From the UHGV virus genome UHGV-0200912: DNA of 44,693 nt, one strand, 5' to 3'. Shown piece after piece: positions 2,885 through 8,300 of this stretch. The DNA comes from a virus. The notes under the pieces are model-generated. The model saw only the letters and a program-made list of their open reading frames with translations. It ran no database searches and was not told the DNA's origin. Position numbers and translations under genes: made by a program. The stretch's first letter is position 1. Each line of letters begins with the position of its first letter.

Positions 2885-3076
2885 TTAATCAGGATTTCTG
2901 TTGTGTGGGAAAGGCTTGATCTCTTCAGCCTTAATTTTTCCATCAGGCAGCGTGTTAACGAAAATCTTCCTTCCCACCCGGATAGCTTTACTAATTGCGG
3001 TCTGGTGAACGCCGATGGCATCAGCAGCTCTTGCCTGTCCAACTTCGTCAACGTATTCAGCTAAAGAAATTTTCAT
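2885..3076 (-). CDS. cro: Cro repressor
   Basis: MKISLAEYVDEVGQARAADAIGVHQTAISKAIRVGRKIFVNTLPDGKIKAEEIKPFP aligns along its length with lambda Cro; GGAG RBS; divergent from cI. Confidence 0.85.
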   Translation of the reverse strand: MKISLAEYVDEVGQARAADAIGVHQTAISKAIRVGRKIFVNTLPDGKIKAEEIKPFPHNRNPD

Positions 3077-3107: not shown

Positions 3108-3169
3108 AATACCACAAGTATTAAACATTGCAATACCTAGGGTATTTTTAAAATAAGAGCATTGGTATT
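3108..3169. promoter_or_regulatory. OR region: three 15-bp operators (3108..3122, 3132..3146, 3155..3169) overlapping divergent pR and pRM
   Basis: AATACCacaAGTATT, AATACCtagGGTATT (perfect palindrome), AAGAGCattGGTATT (weakest, next to cI as for OR3); centre spacing 24 and 23 bp as in lambda. Confidence 0.7.
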
Positions 3170-3180
3170 ACTATTTGAAA

Positions 3181-3891
3181 ATGGAAAAGAAAAAGACACT
3201 GACATCGGCTCAGATTGCTGACGCAGAAAGGCTGAAAGCCCTCTATGAAGCCAAGAAAAAAGAGCTTGGGATAACACAGCAATCAATAGCTGACATGCTA
3301 GACATATCTCAGGGTGGCGTTGGGCATTACTTGAATGGCAGGAATGCCCTTAATGCTGCCGTGGCTGCTGTTTTTGCCAGAGCCCTCCAGGTGGATGTCT
3401 CTGATTTTAGCCCCAGCCTTGCGAAAGAAATATCTGTAATGAGTGCTGCCGCTACATCGAATGCCAAGTATGTAGGCCAGTACACCCCAGGCATTAAATA
3501 CCCTGTATTAAGCAAGATTCAGGCTGGGCATTGGTCGGAAGCGTGCGAGCCGTATGCACTTAAAGATATCGATCTATGGCTCGAATCAGACGCTCACATC
3601 CAGGGGGATGCGTTCTGGTTGTTGGTTGAGGGGGAATCTATGACCGCCCCTGCCGGCCTTAGCATACCGGAGGGTACGTATGTTCTTTTCGATACAGGCA
3701 GGGAGCCAATCAACGGAAGCCTTGTTATTGCAAAGCTGTCCGAATCAAACGAGGCGACATTCAAAAAGCTGATAATCGATGGTGGCCAGAAGTACCTGAA
3801 GGGATTGAATCCACAATGGCCAATGGTACCCATCAACGGAAACTGTCGAATCATTGGGGTGGCTGTAGAAACTAAGTTGAGACTCGTGTGA
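3181..3891 (+). CDS. cI: CI repressor (HTH plus S24 LexA-like autopeptidase domain), likely leaderless start
   Basis: MEKKKTLTSAQIADAERLKALYEAKKKELGITQQSIADMLDISQGGVG matches the lambda CI N-terminus closely; the track start at 3175 is a TTG, and the ATG at 3181 matches the lambda start. Confidence 0.85.
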   Translation: MEKKKTLTSAQIADAERLKALYEAKKKELGITQQSIADMLDISQGGVGHYLNGRNALNAAVAAVFARALQVDVSDFSPSLAKEISVMSAAATSNAKYVGQYTPGIKYPVLSKIQAGHWSEACEPYALKDIDLWLESDAHIQGDAFWLLVEGESMTAPAGLSIPEGTYVLFDTGREPINGSLVIAKLSESNEATFKKLIIDGGQKYLKGLNPQWPMVPINGNCRIIGVAVETKLRLV

Positions 3892-3945
3892 TCAGCAGCA
3901 TGCCGCAGACGTACAGGAAGCATGGGTAGCTAGGCCGGAGGAATT

Positions 3946-4380
3946 ATGCAAGTTAACCTAGAAAGAATATCATTTATAACACCTTTTTCTGATAGTGAGG
4001 ACCAGACACAGCCAAAGCTTAGTTTTGAGTGCGTGAACTTCCCCGCTCAGTTTTCGATAAATTTCCGGGTGGGAATGGTAGGTTTGAAGCCAAATACTCG
4101 CTATCAACTCGGACTGTTTGTTATACCAGCTCATTTATTTATTAAAGAGGGGCAGGGATTTCAACTTCCTGACGGCACTCAGGAATCTGTTTCTGTTAAC
4201 ATTGATACTAAAGACAGCAACATGGCGACGGGTGCCAGTGGACAGGTTGTCATTACTCTAAACGAAATGCGCCTCCCTGGTAAGGGGCTGTATAGTGTGA
4301 CTGGCGTCTTACACGCCAACGATTCGATAAAAACCGTGCTTCATAAAAACGAGTCATTTTTCACTGTTGATAAATTATGA
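3946..4380 (+). CDS. hypothetical soluble protein, first gene of a cI-cotranscribed cassette in the rexA position
   Basis: strong GGAGGAATT RBS; 54 nt after the cI stop; AT-rich compared with neighbours; no known motif. Confidence 0.6.
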   Translation: MQVNLERISFITPFSDSEDQTQPKLSFECVNFPAQFSINFRVGMVGLKPNTRYQLGLFVIPAHLFIKEGQGFQLPDGTQESVSVNIDTKDSNMATGASGQVVITLNEMRLPGKGLYSVTGVLHANDSIKTVLHKNESFFTVDKL

Positions 4381-5024
4381 GTGACGATAAAGAATCAAAA
4401 AATCAAGAGAATCAGAGCGCGAGACCAAATAGCCTAAGGAGGCTGAAAGTTATCGGTGGCTCAGATTTCGATGCTGAATTTGATAATTCCTCTGAGAAGG
4501 TGCAAGATCACTTCATAACGTCGCATACTTCGGAGCGAGAAGTGGATAGGATTAGCAGAGAAGAACTTGAAGCAAGGCTGTCCGCCAATAAAGCGGAAAT
4601 GGAATCAATAGCCTCTTCAATTCGAGCAGACATGGCCTTAGCCAGAGAAAATACCAATGTCCAGTTCGCAAATCTCTCCTCCGCAATTAATTCTATCTCT
4701 TCAAAAATTGACGGGAAGATGGATAGTGTAGATGGAGAAATGAAAGCAATAACTGGTAAGTTTGATGGCATCCAGGGTCAGATAACTGGCCTGAACACAG
4801 CCATTAGCGGAATCCAGTCAGGCATATCTACGCGACTTGCAATTTTTAGCGTAATTATCGCTGTGATTGTCGCCTTGCCTGGGATTATCTCCTCATTTAA
4901 GGACTCTCCAGCTAAGTCTGATGATAATCCTTCACCCTTGATTATTCAGATGCCAGCGCAGCAACAAAATCAACAACCCGCCCCCCAAAACCAACAGAAA
5001 GCCTCGCCAAATCAGCATAAGTAG
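4377..5024 (+). CDS. coiled-coil protein with a single C-terminal TM helix and Q/P-rich tail (rexB position); candidate exclusion or abortive-infection effector
   Basis: ATGA overlap with the upstream gene; heptad-like N-terminal region; TM LAIFSVIIAVIVALPGIISSF; followed by a terminator. Confidence 0.6.
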   Translation: MSDDKESKNQENQSARPNSLRRLKVIGGSDFDAEFDNSSEKVQDHFITSHTSEREVDRISREELEARLSANKAEMESIASSIRADMALARENTNVQFANLSSAINSISSKIDGKMDSVDGEMKAITGKFDGIQGQITGLNTAISGIQSGISTRLAIFSVIIAVIVALPGIISSFKDSPAKSDDNPSPLIIQMPAQQQNQQPAPQNQQKASPNQHK

Positions 5025-5050
5025 CCCGGCCACCGCGCCGGGTTTTTATT
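5025..5050 (+). terminator. rho-independent terminator ending the cI cassette transcript (tImm-like)
   Basis: CCCGGCcaccgcGCCGGG followed by TTTTTATT. Confidence 0.7.
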
Positions 5051-5053
5051 GCC

Positions 5054-5257
5054 CTACTCTTCCCTCAACATCAGCACATCCAGTGCCAGCTCCACAGCCA
5101 GATCTGGCTGGTCCCCCAGCCACAGCACCTGAATCATCTCTATCAGCGCCTCTCTTGATGGCTCGCGCTTCTCAACCAGCATCTGCATAACCGCCATCCC
5201 GATAATCTGCGCTATCTGCGGGTGCATTTCTGCGAAAAACTCATCCTCATTCGACAT
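5054..5257 (-). CDS. small acidic hypothetical protein, divergent from pL
   Basis: 67 aa from ATG 5257 with GAGGGT RBS; the longer track ORF lacks an RBS; AT-rich promoter-like region upstream. Confidence 0.45.
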   Translation of the reverse strand: MSNEDEFFAEMHPQIAQIIGMAVMQMLVEKREPSREALIEMIQVLWLGDQPDLAVELALDVLMLREE

Positions 5258-5326
5258 GGCGCTACCCTCTTTGGCGTTTTTTTGAGCATGACAGCACTCT
5301 TTACAAAAATAAATTAACTTTAAAAT

Positions 5327-5398
5327 CATACCTTTAGTATTTTTATTAAACATTATAATACTGGCGGTATTGATATAAAATAATACCCGGAGTATTAT
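5327..5398 (+). promoter_or_regulatory. OL/pL: three operators (5327..5341, 5357..5371, 5382..5396) overlapping a strong sigma70 promoter (-35 TTGATA 5370..5375, 17-bp spacer, -10 TATTAT 5393..5398)
   Basis: cATACCtttAGTATT, AATACTggcGGTATT, AATACCcggAGTATT; same half-sites as OR. Confidence 0.7.
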
Positions 5399-7621: not shown

Positions 7622-7776
7622 AACATTACCGCGACGCCATAACCGTAGGAAAAGTGAAGTGCATGTACTCCGTCCTTCATCGTGGCTGGCTAATGCCATC
7701 TGGTGAAGTGGTAAGAAACCCGTTAAAGGCTCAGAGGCTGGCTGAAGAGCTGGACACGAAAAGAGGTGCGCAATGA
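7618..7776 (+). CDS. small hypothetical protein (52 aa), translationally coupled on both sides
   Basis: ATG 7618 overlaps the exonuclease TGA; its TGA overlaps the methylase ATG 7773; not in the ORF track. Confidence 0.4.
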   Translation: MKHYRDAITVGKVKCMYSVLHRGWLMPSGEVVRNPLKAQRLAEELDTKRGAQ

Positions 7777-8300
7777 CTGACTACGGCGGATCGAAAACTC
7801 CAAAAAATGAACGTGACTACTGGCAAACGCCGATTGAAATTTTCAACGCGCTCGACCGCGAGTTTGGCTTCTGGCTGGATGCTGCAGCCTCTGAGAGTAA
7901 CGCGCTATGCGCTCACTATCTCACTGAGCTGGATGACTCGCTGAATAGCGAATGGACGTCATACGGGGCGATATGGTGTAACCCGCCCTATTCCGATATC
8001 GGTCCATGGGTGGAAAAAGCTGCTGAACAATCCCGGGCGCAGTCTCAGGCCGTAGTGATGCTGTTACCTGCTGACATCTCTACTAGCTGGTTTATTTCAG
8101 CCATGCAATCAGCTGATGAACTCAGGCTGATAACCGGCGGCCGTGTTCAGTTTGTTCCGGCATCCGTTACAGGAAAGCGCCAGAGCAACCCCAAAGGCTC
8201 GCTCCTGTTTATCTGGCGCCCGTACATCACCCCGCGACACATCATCACGACCGTATCGCTGGCTGAGTTAAAGCGGATCGGAAATCTGGAGGCAGCATGA
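7773..8300 (+). CDS. phage-type DNA N6-adenine methyltransferase (Dam-like)
   Basis: NPPY motif (CNPPYSDIGPW); WQTP...FWLDAAA N-terminal motif; 175 aa. Confidence 0.8.
   Translation: MTDYGGSKTPKNERDYWQTPIEIFNALDREFGFWLDAAASESNALCAHYLTELDDSLNSEWTSYGAIWCNPPYSDIGPWVEKAAEQSRAQSQAVVMLLPADISTSWFISAMQSADELRLITGGRVQFVPASVTGKRQSNPKGSLLFIWRPYITPRHIITTVSLAELKRIGNLEAA

What the first reader, a model, noticed from the sequence alone, without database searches (positions are those of the whole stretch)
3946..5050. Two-gene cassette co-transcribed with cI in the rexA/rexB position: candidate new lysogen-expressed exclusion or abortive-infection system
A strongly RBS-equipped soluble 144-aa protein sits 54 nt after the lambda-like cI stop. 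A 215-aa protein overlaps it by ATGA; it has a cytoplasmic coiled coil, a single C-terminal TM helix and a Q/P-rich tail. The unit ends at a clean terminator at 5025..5050, just before OL/pL. This is the locus where lambda keeps the RexAB Abi pair, where P22 and others keep sie genes, and where many prophages carry defence morons. The cassette is AT-richer than the core genome and neither protein shows a motif I recognise. The sensor-plus-membrane-effector architecture suggests, but does not show, a Rex-like mechanism.
Basis: partly seen in the sequence, partly recalled or inferred. Interest (0 to 1): 0.85.

Follow-up and report, generated by a model that had tools for sequence, protein, structure and literature searches.

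The report
Uncharacterised prophage gene pair replacing rexAB
A Klebsiella lambda-like prophage carries, right behind its repressor gene where phage lambda keeps rexA/rexB, a conserved but uncharacterised pair of genes (a small soluble beta-sandwich protein and a membrane-anchored coiled-coil protein) that sits in a proven hotspot for anti-phage defence genes and is most likely a new, modular phage-exclusion system, although no function has been tested.

Summary
cI (3175-3891) is followed after 54 nt by a 144-aa gene A (3946-4380). Gene B (215 aa, 4377-5024) overlaps it by ATGA and ends at a clean terminator (5023-5052). The cassette is AT-rich. Both genes are under purifying selection.

They belong to PHROG families of unknown function. 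They match no Pfam, NCBIfam, PADLOC or PDB family. The same pair replaces rexAB in coliphages HK244 and HK542 and occurs in 51 of 5,426 complete E. coli genomes, always as 'hypothetical protein'.

Sibling Klebsiella phages with the same flanks carry RexA/RexB, a ParA-like gene or another unknown in this slot. In 96 loci with a related repressor I found 79 cargo architectures, including BstA, PD-Lambda-2, PD-T4-6 and several PADLOC candidates.

The new point is modularity. B-family proteins pair with at least five unrelated small upstream partners, and each partner type goes with its own B N-terminal region. A-family proteins pair with at least three non-homologous proteins of the same build: disordered N-terminus, coiled coil, C-terminal membrane anchor.

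The best reading is a lysogen-expressed exclusion module, with A as sensor or adaptor on B's N-terminus and B as membrane effector. This is inferred, not shown. It is a new variant of a known kind, of moderate to high interest.

The parts
3175..3891 (+). cI-type prophage repressor (HTH plus S24 peptidase). First gene of the operon that the cassette appears to belong to.
   Evidence: Pfam Peptidase_S24 2.3e-23 and HTH_3 1.2e-8. phrog_4 transcriptional repressor 2.4e-50. 44% identical to the HK542/HK244 repressor, which those records describe as similar to lambda repressor.
3900..3929 (+). Fossil 3' end (last nine codons MPQTYRKHG plus stop) of a different S24 repressor allele. It is out of frame with and just downstream of the window's cI stop. 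It is a recombination scar marking the left edge of the cargo slot.
   Evidence: The conserved 41 nt (3888-3928) recur after unrelated repressors, and again just upstream of the cargo, in L009, L011-L016, L058 and L060. In most of 120 IMG/VR loci the same 30 nt form the in-frame C-terminus of a 220-250-aa repressor ending ...FGKVIGSMPQTYRKHG. The RNA is not structured (z = +2.2).
3937..3942 (+). Shine-Dalgarno sequence GGAGGA for gene A.
   Evidence: Read directly from the sequence. The AGGCCGGAG...ATG context is shared with other Klebsiella copies.
3946..4380 (+). Gene A: 144-aa cytoplasmic all-beta (Ig-like sandwich) protein. Proposed specificity, sensor or adaptor subunit.
4377..5024 (+). 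Gene B: 215-aa tail-anchored membrane protein. Variable disordered N-terminus (aa 1-59, nt 4377-4553). Heptad coiled coil (aa 61-147, nt 4557-4817). TM helix (aa 150-174, nt 4824-4898). Q/P-rich periplasmic tail (aa 175-215) with the conserved P-x-I-I-Q-x-P motif (aa 187-193, nt 4935-4955). Proposed membrane effector.
   Evidence: phrog_5820 8.3e-74. Only sub-threshold coiled-coil Pfam hits, e.g. Baculo_PEP_C 25 bits against a cut-off of 38. Structure model. The 30-sequence alignment shows a variable N-terminus and a conserved coil, TM and tail motif. The start overlaps the A stop by ATGA in four divergent cassettes. 16 synonymous against 2 non-synonymous changes among close copies.
5023..5052 (+). 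Intrinsic terminator closing the cI-A-B unit, equivalent to lambda Timm.
   Evidence: Stem AGCCCGGC/GCCGGGTT with 8 pairs (6 G-C) followed by TTTTTATT. The HK244 record annotates the equivalent site as Timm.
5054..5257 (-). 67-aa gene of unknown function, convergent with the cassette. It is the conserved right flank of the cargo slot and probably not part of the system.
   Evidence: phrog_3946 1.7e-37. Present next to RexAB, ParA-like and other cargos in sibling phages. Absent from the E. coli cassettes.
5326..5398 (+). OL operators and pL-like promoter: the right boundary of the immunity region.
   Evidence: TTGATA-17-TATTAT at 5370-5398. AATACYNNNRGTATT-type palindromes at 5357-5371 and 5382-5396 are shared with the OR region at 3132-3146.

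Best explanation
The cassette is accessory cargo of the prophage's repressor operon. It is made in the lysogen together with cI and most likely protects the lysogen from other phages.

Proposed mechanism:
- A, a cytoplasmic Ig-like beta-sandwich, docks on the disordered N-terminal region of B.
- B is a tail-anchored inner-membrane protein. Its long heptad coiled coil runs straight into a single TM helix with a conserved small-residue face.
- Translational coupling through the ATGA overlap, with no separate ribosome-binding site for B, keeps the two proteins stoichiometric.
- A acts as the specificity or sensor subunit and holds B inactive.
- A signal from an infecting phage changes the A-B contact, and B then acts at the membrane. 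The likely action is coiled-coil-driven clustering of TM helices that compromises membrane integrity. That would be abortive infection with the same logic as Rex, though with unrelated proteins.

Shown: gene order, coupling, conservation, purifying selection, allelism with rexAB, hotspot context, and partner/N-terminus co-variation.

Inferred: expression from pRM, A-B binding, membrane topology, anti-phage function, and the Abi mechanism.
For: Position:
- The same pair replaces rexAB between cI and Timm in HK244 and HK542.
- A sibling Klebsiella phage with the same flanks has RexA plus RexB in the slot. Others have a ParA-like gene or a further unknown gene.

Hotspot:
- Downstream of one repressor family, 96 loci show 79 cargo architectures.
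- The 66 cargo clusters include BstA (3 clusters), PD-Lambda-2_B, PD-T4-6, mad6, PDC-M11, PDC-M63, PDC-M66, PDC-S25 and PDC-S42. They also include SIR2, HipA-like and kinase domains.
- The literature states the same for the cI-N region (PMC8585504).

Operon layout: strong SD for A, ATGA overlap conserved in four divergent cassettes, no terminator before 5023.

Modularity:
- The B family (34 clusters) sits on the same strand downstream of an S24 repressor in 42 of 53 loci.
- It is always preceded by a small gene from one of at least five unrelated families.
- Partner family tracks the B N-terminal cluster almost one to one: 34/34, 6/7, 5/6, 3/3.
- Conversely, distant A-family members in Serratia, a metagenome and Photorhabdus are each followed by an overlapping, non-homologous protein of the same build. 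That build is a disordered Gly-rich N-terminus, a coiled coil and a C-terminal TM.
- In all 38 loci examined, A is followed by such a protein.

Selection: B shows 16 synonymous to 2 non-synonymous changes, A shows 4 to 5 among close copies. This fits a faster-evolving specificity subunit, though the numbers are small.

Mobility: the identical cassette sits next to repressors unrelated by BLAST and carries a fossil repressor 3' end.
Against: - No experiment supports the function, and no expression data are available.
- Neither protein has any homology to a validated defence protein.
- Guilt by association in a moron slot is not proof. Such slots also carry non-defence cargo.
- The A fold is a generic Ig-like sandwich that says nothing about function.
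- The B model has low confidence outside the first part of the long helix, about residues 61-110.
- A-B binding is inferred only from co-variation among partly redundant loci.
- A single TM helix is not an obvious channel.
- The conserved periplasmic motif of B is not explained by a purely cytoplasmic-sensing model.
Confidence: 0.5

Rival explanations
1. Superinfection exclusion at the envelope. B sits in the inner membrane, and its conserved periplasmic P-x-I-I-Q-x-P segment interferes with genome injection by incoming phages, for example by contacting the injection apparatus or the host permease it uses. A acts as a stabiliser or assembly factor. Infected cells survive.
For: B is a membrane protein with a short periplasmic tail whose membrane-proximal motif (P187, Q191, P193) is invariant or nearly so across 30 homologues from Klebsiella to Xenorhabdus. 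It would be expressed in the lysogen, judging from layout. Prophage morons of this kind are known (HK97 gp15, P22 SieA; from memory).
Against: The variable, apparently specificity-determining parts are cytoplasmic: the partner protein and the B N-terminus. The A-paired analogues in Serratia and Photorhabdus end at the TM helix with no periplasmic tail at all. Most of B's mass is cytoplasmic coiled coil.
Confidence: 0.2
2. A toxin-antitoxin-like addiction or maintenance module. B is a membrane toxin, A is its upstream, translationally coupled antidote, and the pair stabilises the prophage rather than sensing phages.
For: A small two-gene operon with ATGA overlap and the soluble protein first. 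The partner co-varies with the B segment it would bind. The cassette is mobile between immunity regions.
Against: No hit to any known toxin or antitoxin family. The placement in a slot rich in defence systems fits defence at least as well, and many TA modules are themselves Abi systems, so the two readings overlap. There is no evidence that B alone is toxic.
Confidence: 0.1
3. A function in the phage's own life cycle: modulation of induction, of the lysis-lysogeny switch or of lysis timing. Precedents would be the secondary role proposed for RexAB, or XhlA-type lysis accessory proteins.
For: The short analogue of B in Serratia gives a weak XhlA match (PF10779, E = 5.8e-4, below cut-off). XhlA of PBSX is a coiled-coil plus C-terminal-TM lysis accessory protein (from memory). 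The cassette lies in the immunity region.
Against: The window's B itself does not hit XhlA at E <= 1. The slot is dispensable and hypervariable among otherwise similar phages, which argues against a core life-cycle role. The same pair type also occurs as a moron inside a Photorhabdus tail gene cluster.
Confidence: 0.1
4. Lysogenic-conversion cargo unrelated to phages, such as envelope stress tolerance, a host-interaction trait or ribosome/membrane tethering. It would simply be riding in a highly expressed slot.
For: Moron slots also carry non-defence genes. Tail-anchored coiled-coil inner-membrane proteins with stress roles exist in enterobacteria (ElaB/YqjD family; from memory). The function of both PHROG families is unknown.
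Against: The combinatorial swapping of partner and N-terminus and the faster protein-level change of A look like an arms-race signature. The neighbours in the slot are predominantly defence-type.
Confidence: 0.1

Closest known systems
Lambda RexA/RexB abortive-infection pair
   Same: Same genomic place: downstream of cI, upstream of Timm and OL/pL. In HK244/HK542 and in sibling Klebsiella phages the two cassettes are literally interchangeable. Both are two genes in the order soluble protein then membrane protein, and both are presumed to be expressed from the repressor promoter in lysogens.
   Different: No sequence or profile similarity (no Pfam or PADLOC hit). B has one C-terminal TM helix after a long coiled coil, whereas RexB is a multi-pass membrane protein. 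A is a 144-aa Ig-like sandwich, whereas RexA is about 280 aa (839-nt gene). No conserved internal promoter equivalent to pLit was found.
BstA (Salmonella prophage BTP1) and other single- or two-gene cargos of the cI-N hotspot
   Same: Same slot and same presumed promoter sharing with the repressor (PMC8585504). BstA occurs as alternative cargo behind the same repressor family as the A-B cassette.
   Different: BstA is a single cytoplasmic DNA-associated protein with a cognate aba element. There is no similarity to A or B.
XhlA-type and other short 'coiled coil plus C-terminal TM' phage proteins (PF10779)
   Same: Same overall build as B and, more closely, as the short B-analogues that follow A-family genes in Serratia and Photorhabdus.
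   Different: The matches are below the curated threshold (20.4 bits against 34.7 for the Serratia protein, none for the window's B). XhlA sits in lysis cassettes, not in the repressor operon, and has no upstream A-like partner.
PHROG families phrog_5893 and phrog_5820
   Same: Full-length, highly significant matches. These are the families the two proteins belong to.
   Different: Both are annotated 'unknown function', so they carry no mechanistic information.
Membrane-acting type II-like toxin-antitoxin or Abi pairs
   Same: Two overlapping small genes, soluble partner first and membrane protein second. The partner co-varies with the segment it would bind.
   Different: No homology to any catalogued toxin or antitoxin. 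B is much larger than classical small membrane toxins, and most of it is coiled coil.

Membership tests
RexAB (lambda) | Sequence or profile similarity to RexA and RexB | tested here: not met
   No Pfam, NCBIfam or PADLOC match for A. B gives only chance coiled-coil matches.
RexAB (lambda) | Location between cI and Timm/OL, same strand as cI | tested here: met
   Interchangeable with rexAB in HK244/HK542 and in Klebsiella phage ST101-KPC2phi6.1.
RexAB (lambda) | Multi-pass membrane protein (RexB) as second gene | tested here: not met
   B has a single hydrophobic helix at residues 150-174 after a long coiled coil.
RexAB (lambda) | Abortive-infection phenotype with loss of membrane potential | not testable with these tools
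   Needs phage challenge and membrane-potential assays.
phrog_5893 / phrog_5820 | Full-length profile match | tested here: met
   1.4e-44 over residues 3-143 of 144, and 8.3e-74 over residues 1-207 of 215.
XhlA (PF10779) | Score above the Pfam gathering threshold (34.7 bits) | tested here: not met
   No hit for the window's B at E <= 1. The Serratia analogue scores 20.4 bits.
Baculo_PEP_C (PF04513) | Score above the Pfam gathering threshold (38 bits) | tested here: not met
   25.1 bits, E = 2e-5, over the Gly-containing heptad region. Treated as a compositional or coiled-coil resemblance.
Known or candidate defence systems in PADLOC-DB v2 | Profile match of either protein, or of the alternative partners and analogues | tested here: not met
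   No hits for A. B hits only ZorA3 at E = 9e-4 over a coiled-coil tail. The alternative partners and B-analogues give no hits except generic coiled-coil matches.
Proteins with a solved structure | Sequence-profile match to any PDB chain | tested here: not met
Prophage-encoded anti-phage defence system (functional class) | Located in a recognised, variable defence-cargo slot of a prophage | tested here: met
   plus PMC8585504.
Prophage-encoded anti-phage defence system (functional class) | Confers resistance to phage infection when expressed | not testable with these tools
   No experimental data were found in the searched literature.

The most novel reading that the evidence does not exclude
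The window's pair is one instance of a previously unrecognised, combinatorial superfamily of prophage immunity modules. Its invariant principle would be 'a small cytoplasmic recognition protein clamped onto the disordered N-terminus of a tail-anchored coiled-coil membrane protein'. Recognition proteins (at least five folds or families) and anchors (at least three non-homologous families) would be shuffled like sensor and effector cartridges. The effector would work by a mechanism not yet described for defence systems, namely coiled-coil-driven clustering of single TM helices, SNARE- or holin-like, rather than a preformed channel or an enzyme.
Probability: 0.3. Interest if true: 0.8.

Novelty: new variant of a known kind. 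Interest (0 to 1): 0.6.

Why it matters
If the pair is a defence system, it adds a protein family with no relatives among catalogued systems. It sits at the textbook rexAB position, so the natural genetic background (lambda-immunity phages HK244 and HK542) is already in hand for direct comparison with Rex. The mechanism of Rex itself is still poorly understood.

The partner/N-terminus swapping offers a built-in experimental handle: chimeras should re-target specificity. It also suggests that tail-anchored coiled-coil proteins are a reusable membrane effector chassis in prophages.

Practically, the cassette is present in clinical Klebsiella pneumoniae prophages and in about 1% of complete E. 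coli genomes. It could therefore affect the host range of therapeutic phages.

Tried and rejected
1. Mini-ORF or leader peptide in the cI-A spacer. The 30-nt box at 3900-3929 encodes MPQTYRKHG-stop, and 42 purely synonymous variants exist in IMG/VR, which looked like a translated leader. One search showed that the box is the in-frame C-terminus of a common repressor family. In the window it is a fossil, so the idea is rejected.

2. Structured RNA in the spacer. The fold is weaker than shuffled controls (z = +2.2), so this is rejected.

3. An internal pLit-like promoter at 4367-4395. It is a 9/12 consensus match, promoter-like sites occur at chance frequency in the region, and it is not conserved in HK542, L038 or L043. 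I do not rely on it.

4. Homology of B to the short coil-TM proteins that follow distant A homologues. hhalign gives probability 0.4%. They are analogues, not homologues.

5. Homology of A to phage tail proteins. The Photorhabdus A-like genes lie in baseplate clusters. However, they come with their own coil-TM partner and other morons, so they are cargo, not structural genes. The phrog_341 'major tail protein' match has E = 0.076 only.

7. The genome-contig scan with the B alignment found only one locus. The A alignment was too divergent for the search for related loci.

8. Literature. No paper in the held library mentions HK24404/05, HK542_035 or the RefSeq WP ids, and they are absent from the DefensePredictor supplements. 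Brenes & Laub 2025 and Degnan 2007 are not held, so I cannot exclude that one of them tested this pair.
Full report
**1. What is in the sequence**

The window is a Klebsiella lambdoid prophage; all 16 phage-database DNA matches are Klebsiella phages. On the minus strand lie cro (about 2885-3076), cII, O and a DnaC-like P gene. On the plus strand lies an S24/HTH repressor at 3175-3891.

Gene A starts 54 nt after the repressor stop. It runs 3946-4380 (144 aa) and is preceded by GGAGGA at 3937-3942. Gene B (4377-5024, 215 aa) overlaps A by ATGA and has no ribosome-binding site of its own.

A strong intrinsic terminator follows at 5023-5044 plus a T-run, and nothing terminator-like lies between cI and A. 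The cassette is 0.43-0.44 G+C against 0.53-0.56 in the flanks.

- A 67-codon minus-strand gene (5054-5257, phrog_3946) lies between the terminator and OL/pL. The operator-like palindromes and the pL-like promoter are at about 5326-5398.
- Part of the 54-nt spacer is a fossil of another repressor gene (section 5).

**2. The two proteins**

B matches phrog_5820 (8e-74) and gives only sub-threshold coiled-coil Pfam hits. Its model and a 30-sequence alignment show:
- a variable, disordered N-terminus (residues 1-59);
- a conserved heptad coiled coil with a glycine in most heptads (61-147) that runs directly into a TM helix (150-174) with a conserved small-residue face;
- a Q/P-rich tail whose membrane-proximal P-x-I-I-Q-x-P motif is nearly invariant.

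The model is confident (pLDDT 73-90) only over about residues 61-110. The TM helix and the tail rest mainly on the sequence and the alignment.

With no signal peptide, the topology is most simply N-in/C-out, i.e. tail-anchored. This is an inference.

Neither protein matches any PDB sequence.

Both are real genes. Among close Klebsiella copies, B shows 16 synonymous to 2 non-synonymous codon changes. A against HK542 changes mostly at third positions. A shows 4 synonymous to 5 non-synonymous changes among close copies.

**3. The pair is known as sequence, not as function**

The same pair, at 64% and 62% identity, lies between cI and the annotated Timm terminator in coliphages HK244 and HK542, exactly where lambda has rexA-rexB. 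It is annotated 'hypothetical protein'.

It occurs in 51 of 5,426 complete E. coli genomes, again as 'hypothetical protein' in RefSeq 2026. No paper in the held library mentions the identifiers, and neither do the DefensePredictor supplements.

**4. The slot is a defence hotspot**

Sibling Klebsiella phages share the flanks, namely the repressor 3' end on the left and the 67-aa minus-strand gene plus OL on the right. In the slot they carry RexA plus RexB (MK448231), a ParA-like protein (MK448234) or a 125-aa unknown (PV539235).

I used the fossil repressor end as a probe and fetched 120 IMG/VR loci. Of these, 96 have enough downstream sequence, and they show 79 different cargo architectures and 66 cargo protein clusters of at least 100 aa.

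PADLOC recognises among them BstA (3 clusters), PD-Lambda-2_B, PD-T4-6, mad6, PDC-M11A/B, PDC-M63A/B, PDC-M66A/B, PDC-S25 and PDC-S42. Pfam adds SIR2_2, HipA_2, protein kinase, DUF4411 and SocA_Panacea.

The A-B pair is the cargo in 4 of these loci. A B-family protein with a 92-95-aa partner is the cargo in 2 more. Owen et al. 2021 (PMC8585504), citing Degnan et al. 2007, already describe the cI-N interval as a mosaic hotspot that holds rexAB and bstA.

**5. How the cassette moves**

The 41 nt starting at the window's cI stop (3888-3928) recur after repressors that are unrelated by BLAST. In several loci they occur a second time, just upstream of the cargo.

The 30-nt core encodes MPQTYRKHG-stop, and I briefly took it for a conserved leader peptide. 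One search shows that it is the in-frame C-terminus of a widespread repressor family.

In the window it is therefore a recombination scar. The cassette was exchanged by recombination within or next to the 3' end of cI, and it carries that scar with it.

**6. Modularity (the main new result)**

B-family proteins form 34 clusters, from Klebsiella, Enterobacter, Kosakonia, Cedecea, Leclercia, Yersinia, Serratia and Xenorhabdus.

Context was examined in three genomes and 49 IMG/VR loci. B sits on the same strand downstream of an S24 repressor in 42 of 53 loci. It is always immediately preceded, usually with overlap, by a small gene.

That small gene belongs to at least five unrelated families:
- the A type, 143-144 aa;
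- a 98-101-aa type;
- a 112-125-aa CxxC...CxxC type (phrog_4293);
- a 96-aa type;
- an 84-92-aa type.

None of these has a Pfam or PADLOC annotation. Partner family and B N-terminal sequence cluster correspond almost one to one: 34/34, 6/7, 5/6 and 3/3.

The converse also holds. A profile search of 1.8 billion representatives finds about 15 further A-family clusters of 136-153 aa. Four of them could be placed in context. In Serratia odorifera and in a metagenome contig the order is repressor, then A-like, then an overlapping 131-135-aa protein, then the N gene. In two Photorhabdus loci the A-like gene is followed by an overlapping 108- or 175-aa protein inside a myovirus baseplate cluster, next to other morons.

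All four downstream proteins have the B build: a disordered Gly-rich N-terminus, a coiled coil and a C-terminal TM. They are not homologous to B (hhalign probability 0.4%; weak sub-threshold XhlA match).

In all 38 loci examined, A is followed by such a protein. The recurring principle is thus 'small soluble protein plus tail-anchored coiled-coil protein whose N-terminus matches the partner'.

By eye, the N-termini of B and of the Serratia-type analogues share a short R-x-[KR]-[VI]...[DE]-F-x-x-x-[FY]-[DE] segment. It is a candidate docking site for A. This is an inference.

**7. Mechanism**

The best-supported reading, with confidence of about 0.5, is a lysogen-expressed phage-exclusion module. 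A is the specificity or sensor subunit bound to B's N-terminus, and B is the membrane effector. The most likely outcome is abortive infection through membrane damage. This copies the logic of Rex but not its proteins.

Support:
- allelism with rexAB;
- the hotspot census;
- the arms-race-like cartridge swapping;
- translational coupling;
- the hint that A evolves faster than B.

Against:
- there is no functional evidence and no homology to a validated system;
- the conserved periplasmic motif of B has no role in this model.

Rivals:
- Injection-blocking superinfection exclusion (0.2). The periplasmic motif favours it. The cytoplasmic location of all the variable parts disfavours it, as do the tail-less analogues.
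- A TA-like addiction module (0.1). This overlaps with Abi.
- A role in the phage's own switch or lysis (0.1). The dispensability and hypervariability of the slot argue against it.
- Unrelated lysogenic conversion (0.1).

**8. Verdict**

The pair is not a member of RexAB, BstA, XhlA or any PADLOC family. It belongs to two PHROG families of unknown function.

If it is a defence system, it is a new variant of a known kind (prophage repressor-operon Abi or exclusion cargo) with an unusual, modular effector architecture.

Interest is 0.6. The case is directly testable in lambda-immunity phages HK244 and HK542 and relevant to Klebsiella phage therapy. It is not categorically new, and it has no phenotype yet.

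Noticed in passing
window 5054-5257 (-): A 67-aa gene (phrog_3946, unknown function) is convergent with the cassette and lies between its terminator and OL/pL. It is conserved as the right flank of the cargo slot in sibling Klebsiella phages whatever the cargo. A promoter-like site on the minus strand (5379-5352) overlaps the OL operators, so the gene may be repressor-controlled and divergent from pL.
   Followed up: partly
window 3888-3929 (+): Directly after the cI stop lies the intact last nine codons plus stop (MPQTYRKHG*) of a different, widespread S24 repressor family, out of frame. It is a recombination scar. In several related loci the same 30-41 nt occur twice, bracketing a small extra ORF.
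   Followed up: yes
L018-L030 and L037 (E. coli IMG/VR loci), about 4158-4499; L019 1827-2168: Many E. coli copies of the cassette have an additional 113-aa DUF3024 gene (phrog_3467) between the repressor and gene A. It matches the PADLOC candidate single-gene system PDC-S43 (7e-42). The slot can therefore hold stacked cargos.
   Followed up: partly
L064 4604-6056; L062 4645-6267 (Photorhabdus): A moron island lies inside a myovirus or tailocin baseplate cluster. It comprises a 115-aa secreted or lipoprotein-like protein, an A-family protein, an overlapping coil plus C-terminal-TM protein, and a T4 Y11B-like protein. In L062 the remnant lies next to a T6SS tssM (IcmF) gene.
   Followed up: partly
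L040 about 4532-4935: A B-family gene has the N-terminus type that normally goes with the 120-aa CxxC partner, but no intact partner ORF lies upstream (402-nt gap). This may be a decayed partner gene.
   Followed up: no
L051, L056, L057 (IMG/VR): The weakest B-like hits (29-46% identity over the coil) lie next to tape-measure-like or transglycosylase-like tail genes rather than behind a repressor. They are probably unrelated coiled-coil proteins, but the Gly-containing heptads resemble tape-measure repeats.
   Followed up: no
window 7773-8300 (+): A 175-aa ORF in the pL operon has a WCNPPYSD motif, typical of N6-adenine DNA methyltransferases. It is a possible anti-restriction or orphan methylase.
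   Followed up: no
window 3132-3146, 5357-5371, 5382-5396: AATACYNNNRGTATT-type palindromes are shared between the OR and OL regions and are the likely operators of this repressor.
   Followed up: partly
L004 4214-4588 (Yersinia): A further 124-aa protein with an N-terminal hydrophobic helix lies between the repressor and the partner-B pair. This is another example of stacked cargo.
   Followed up: no
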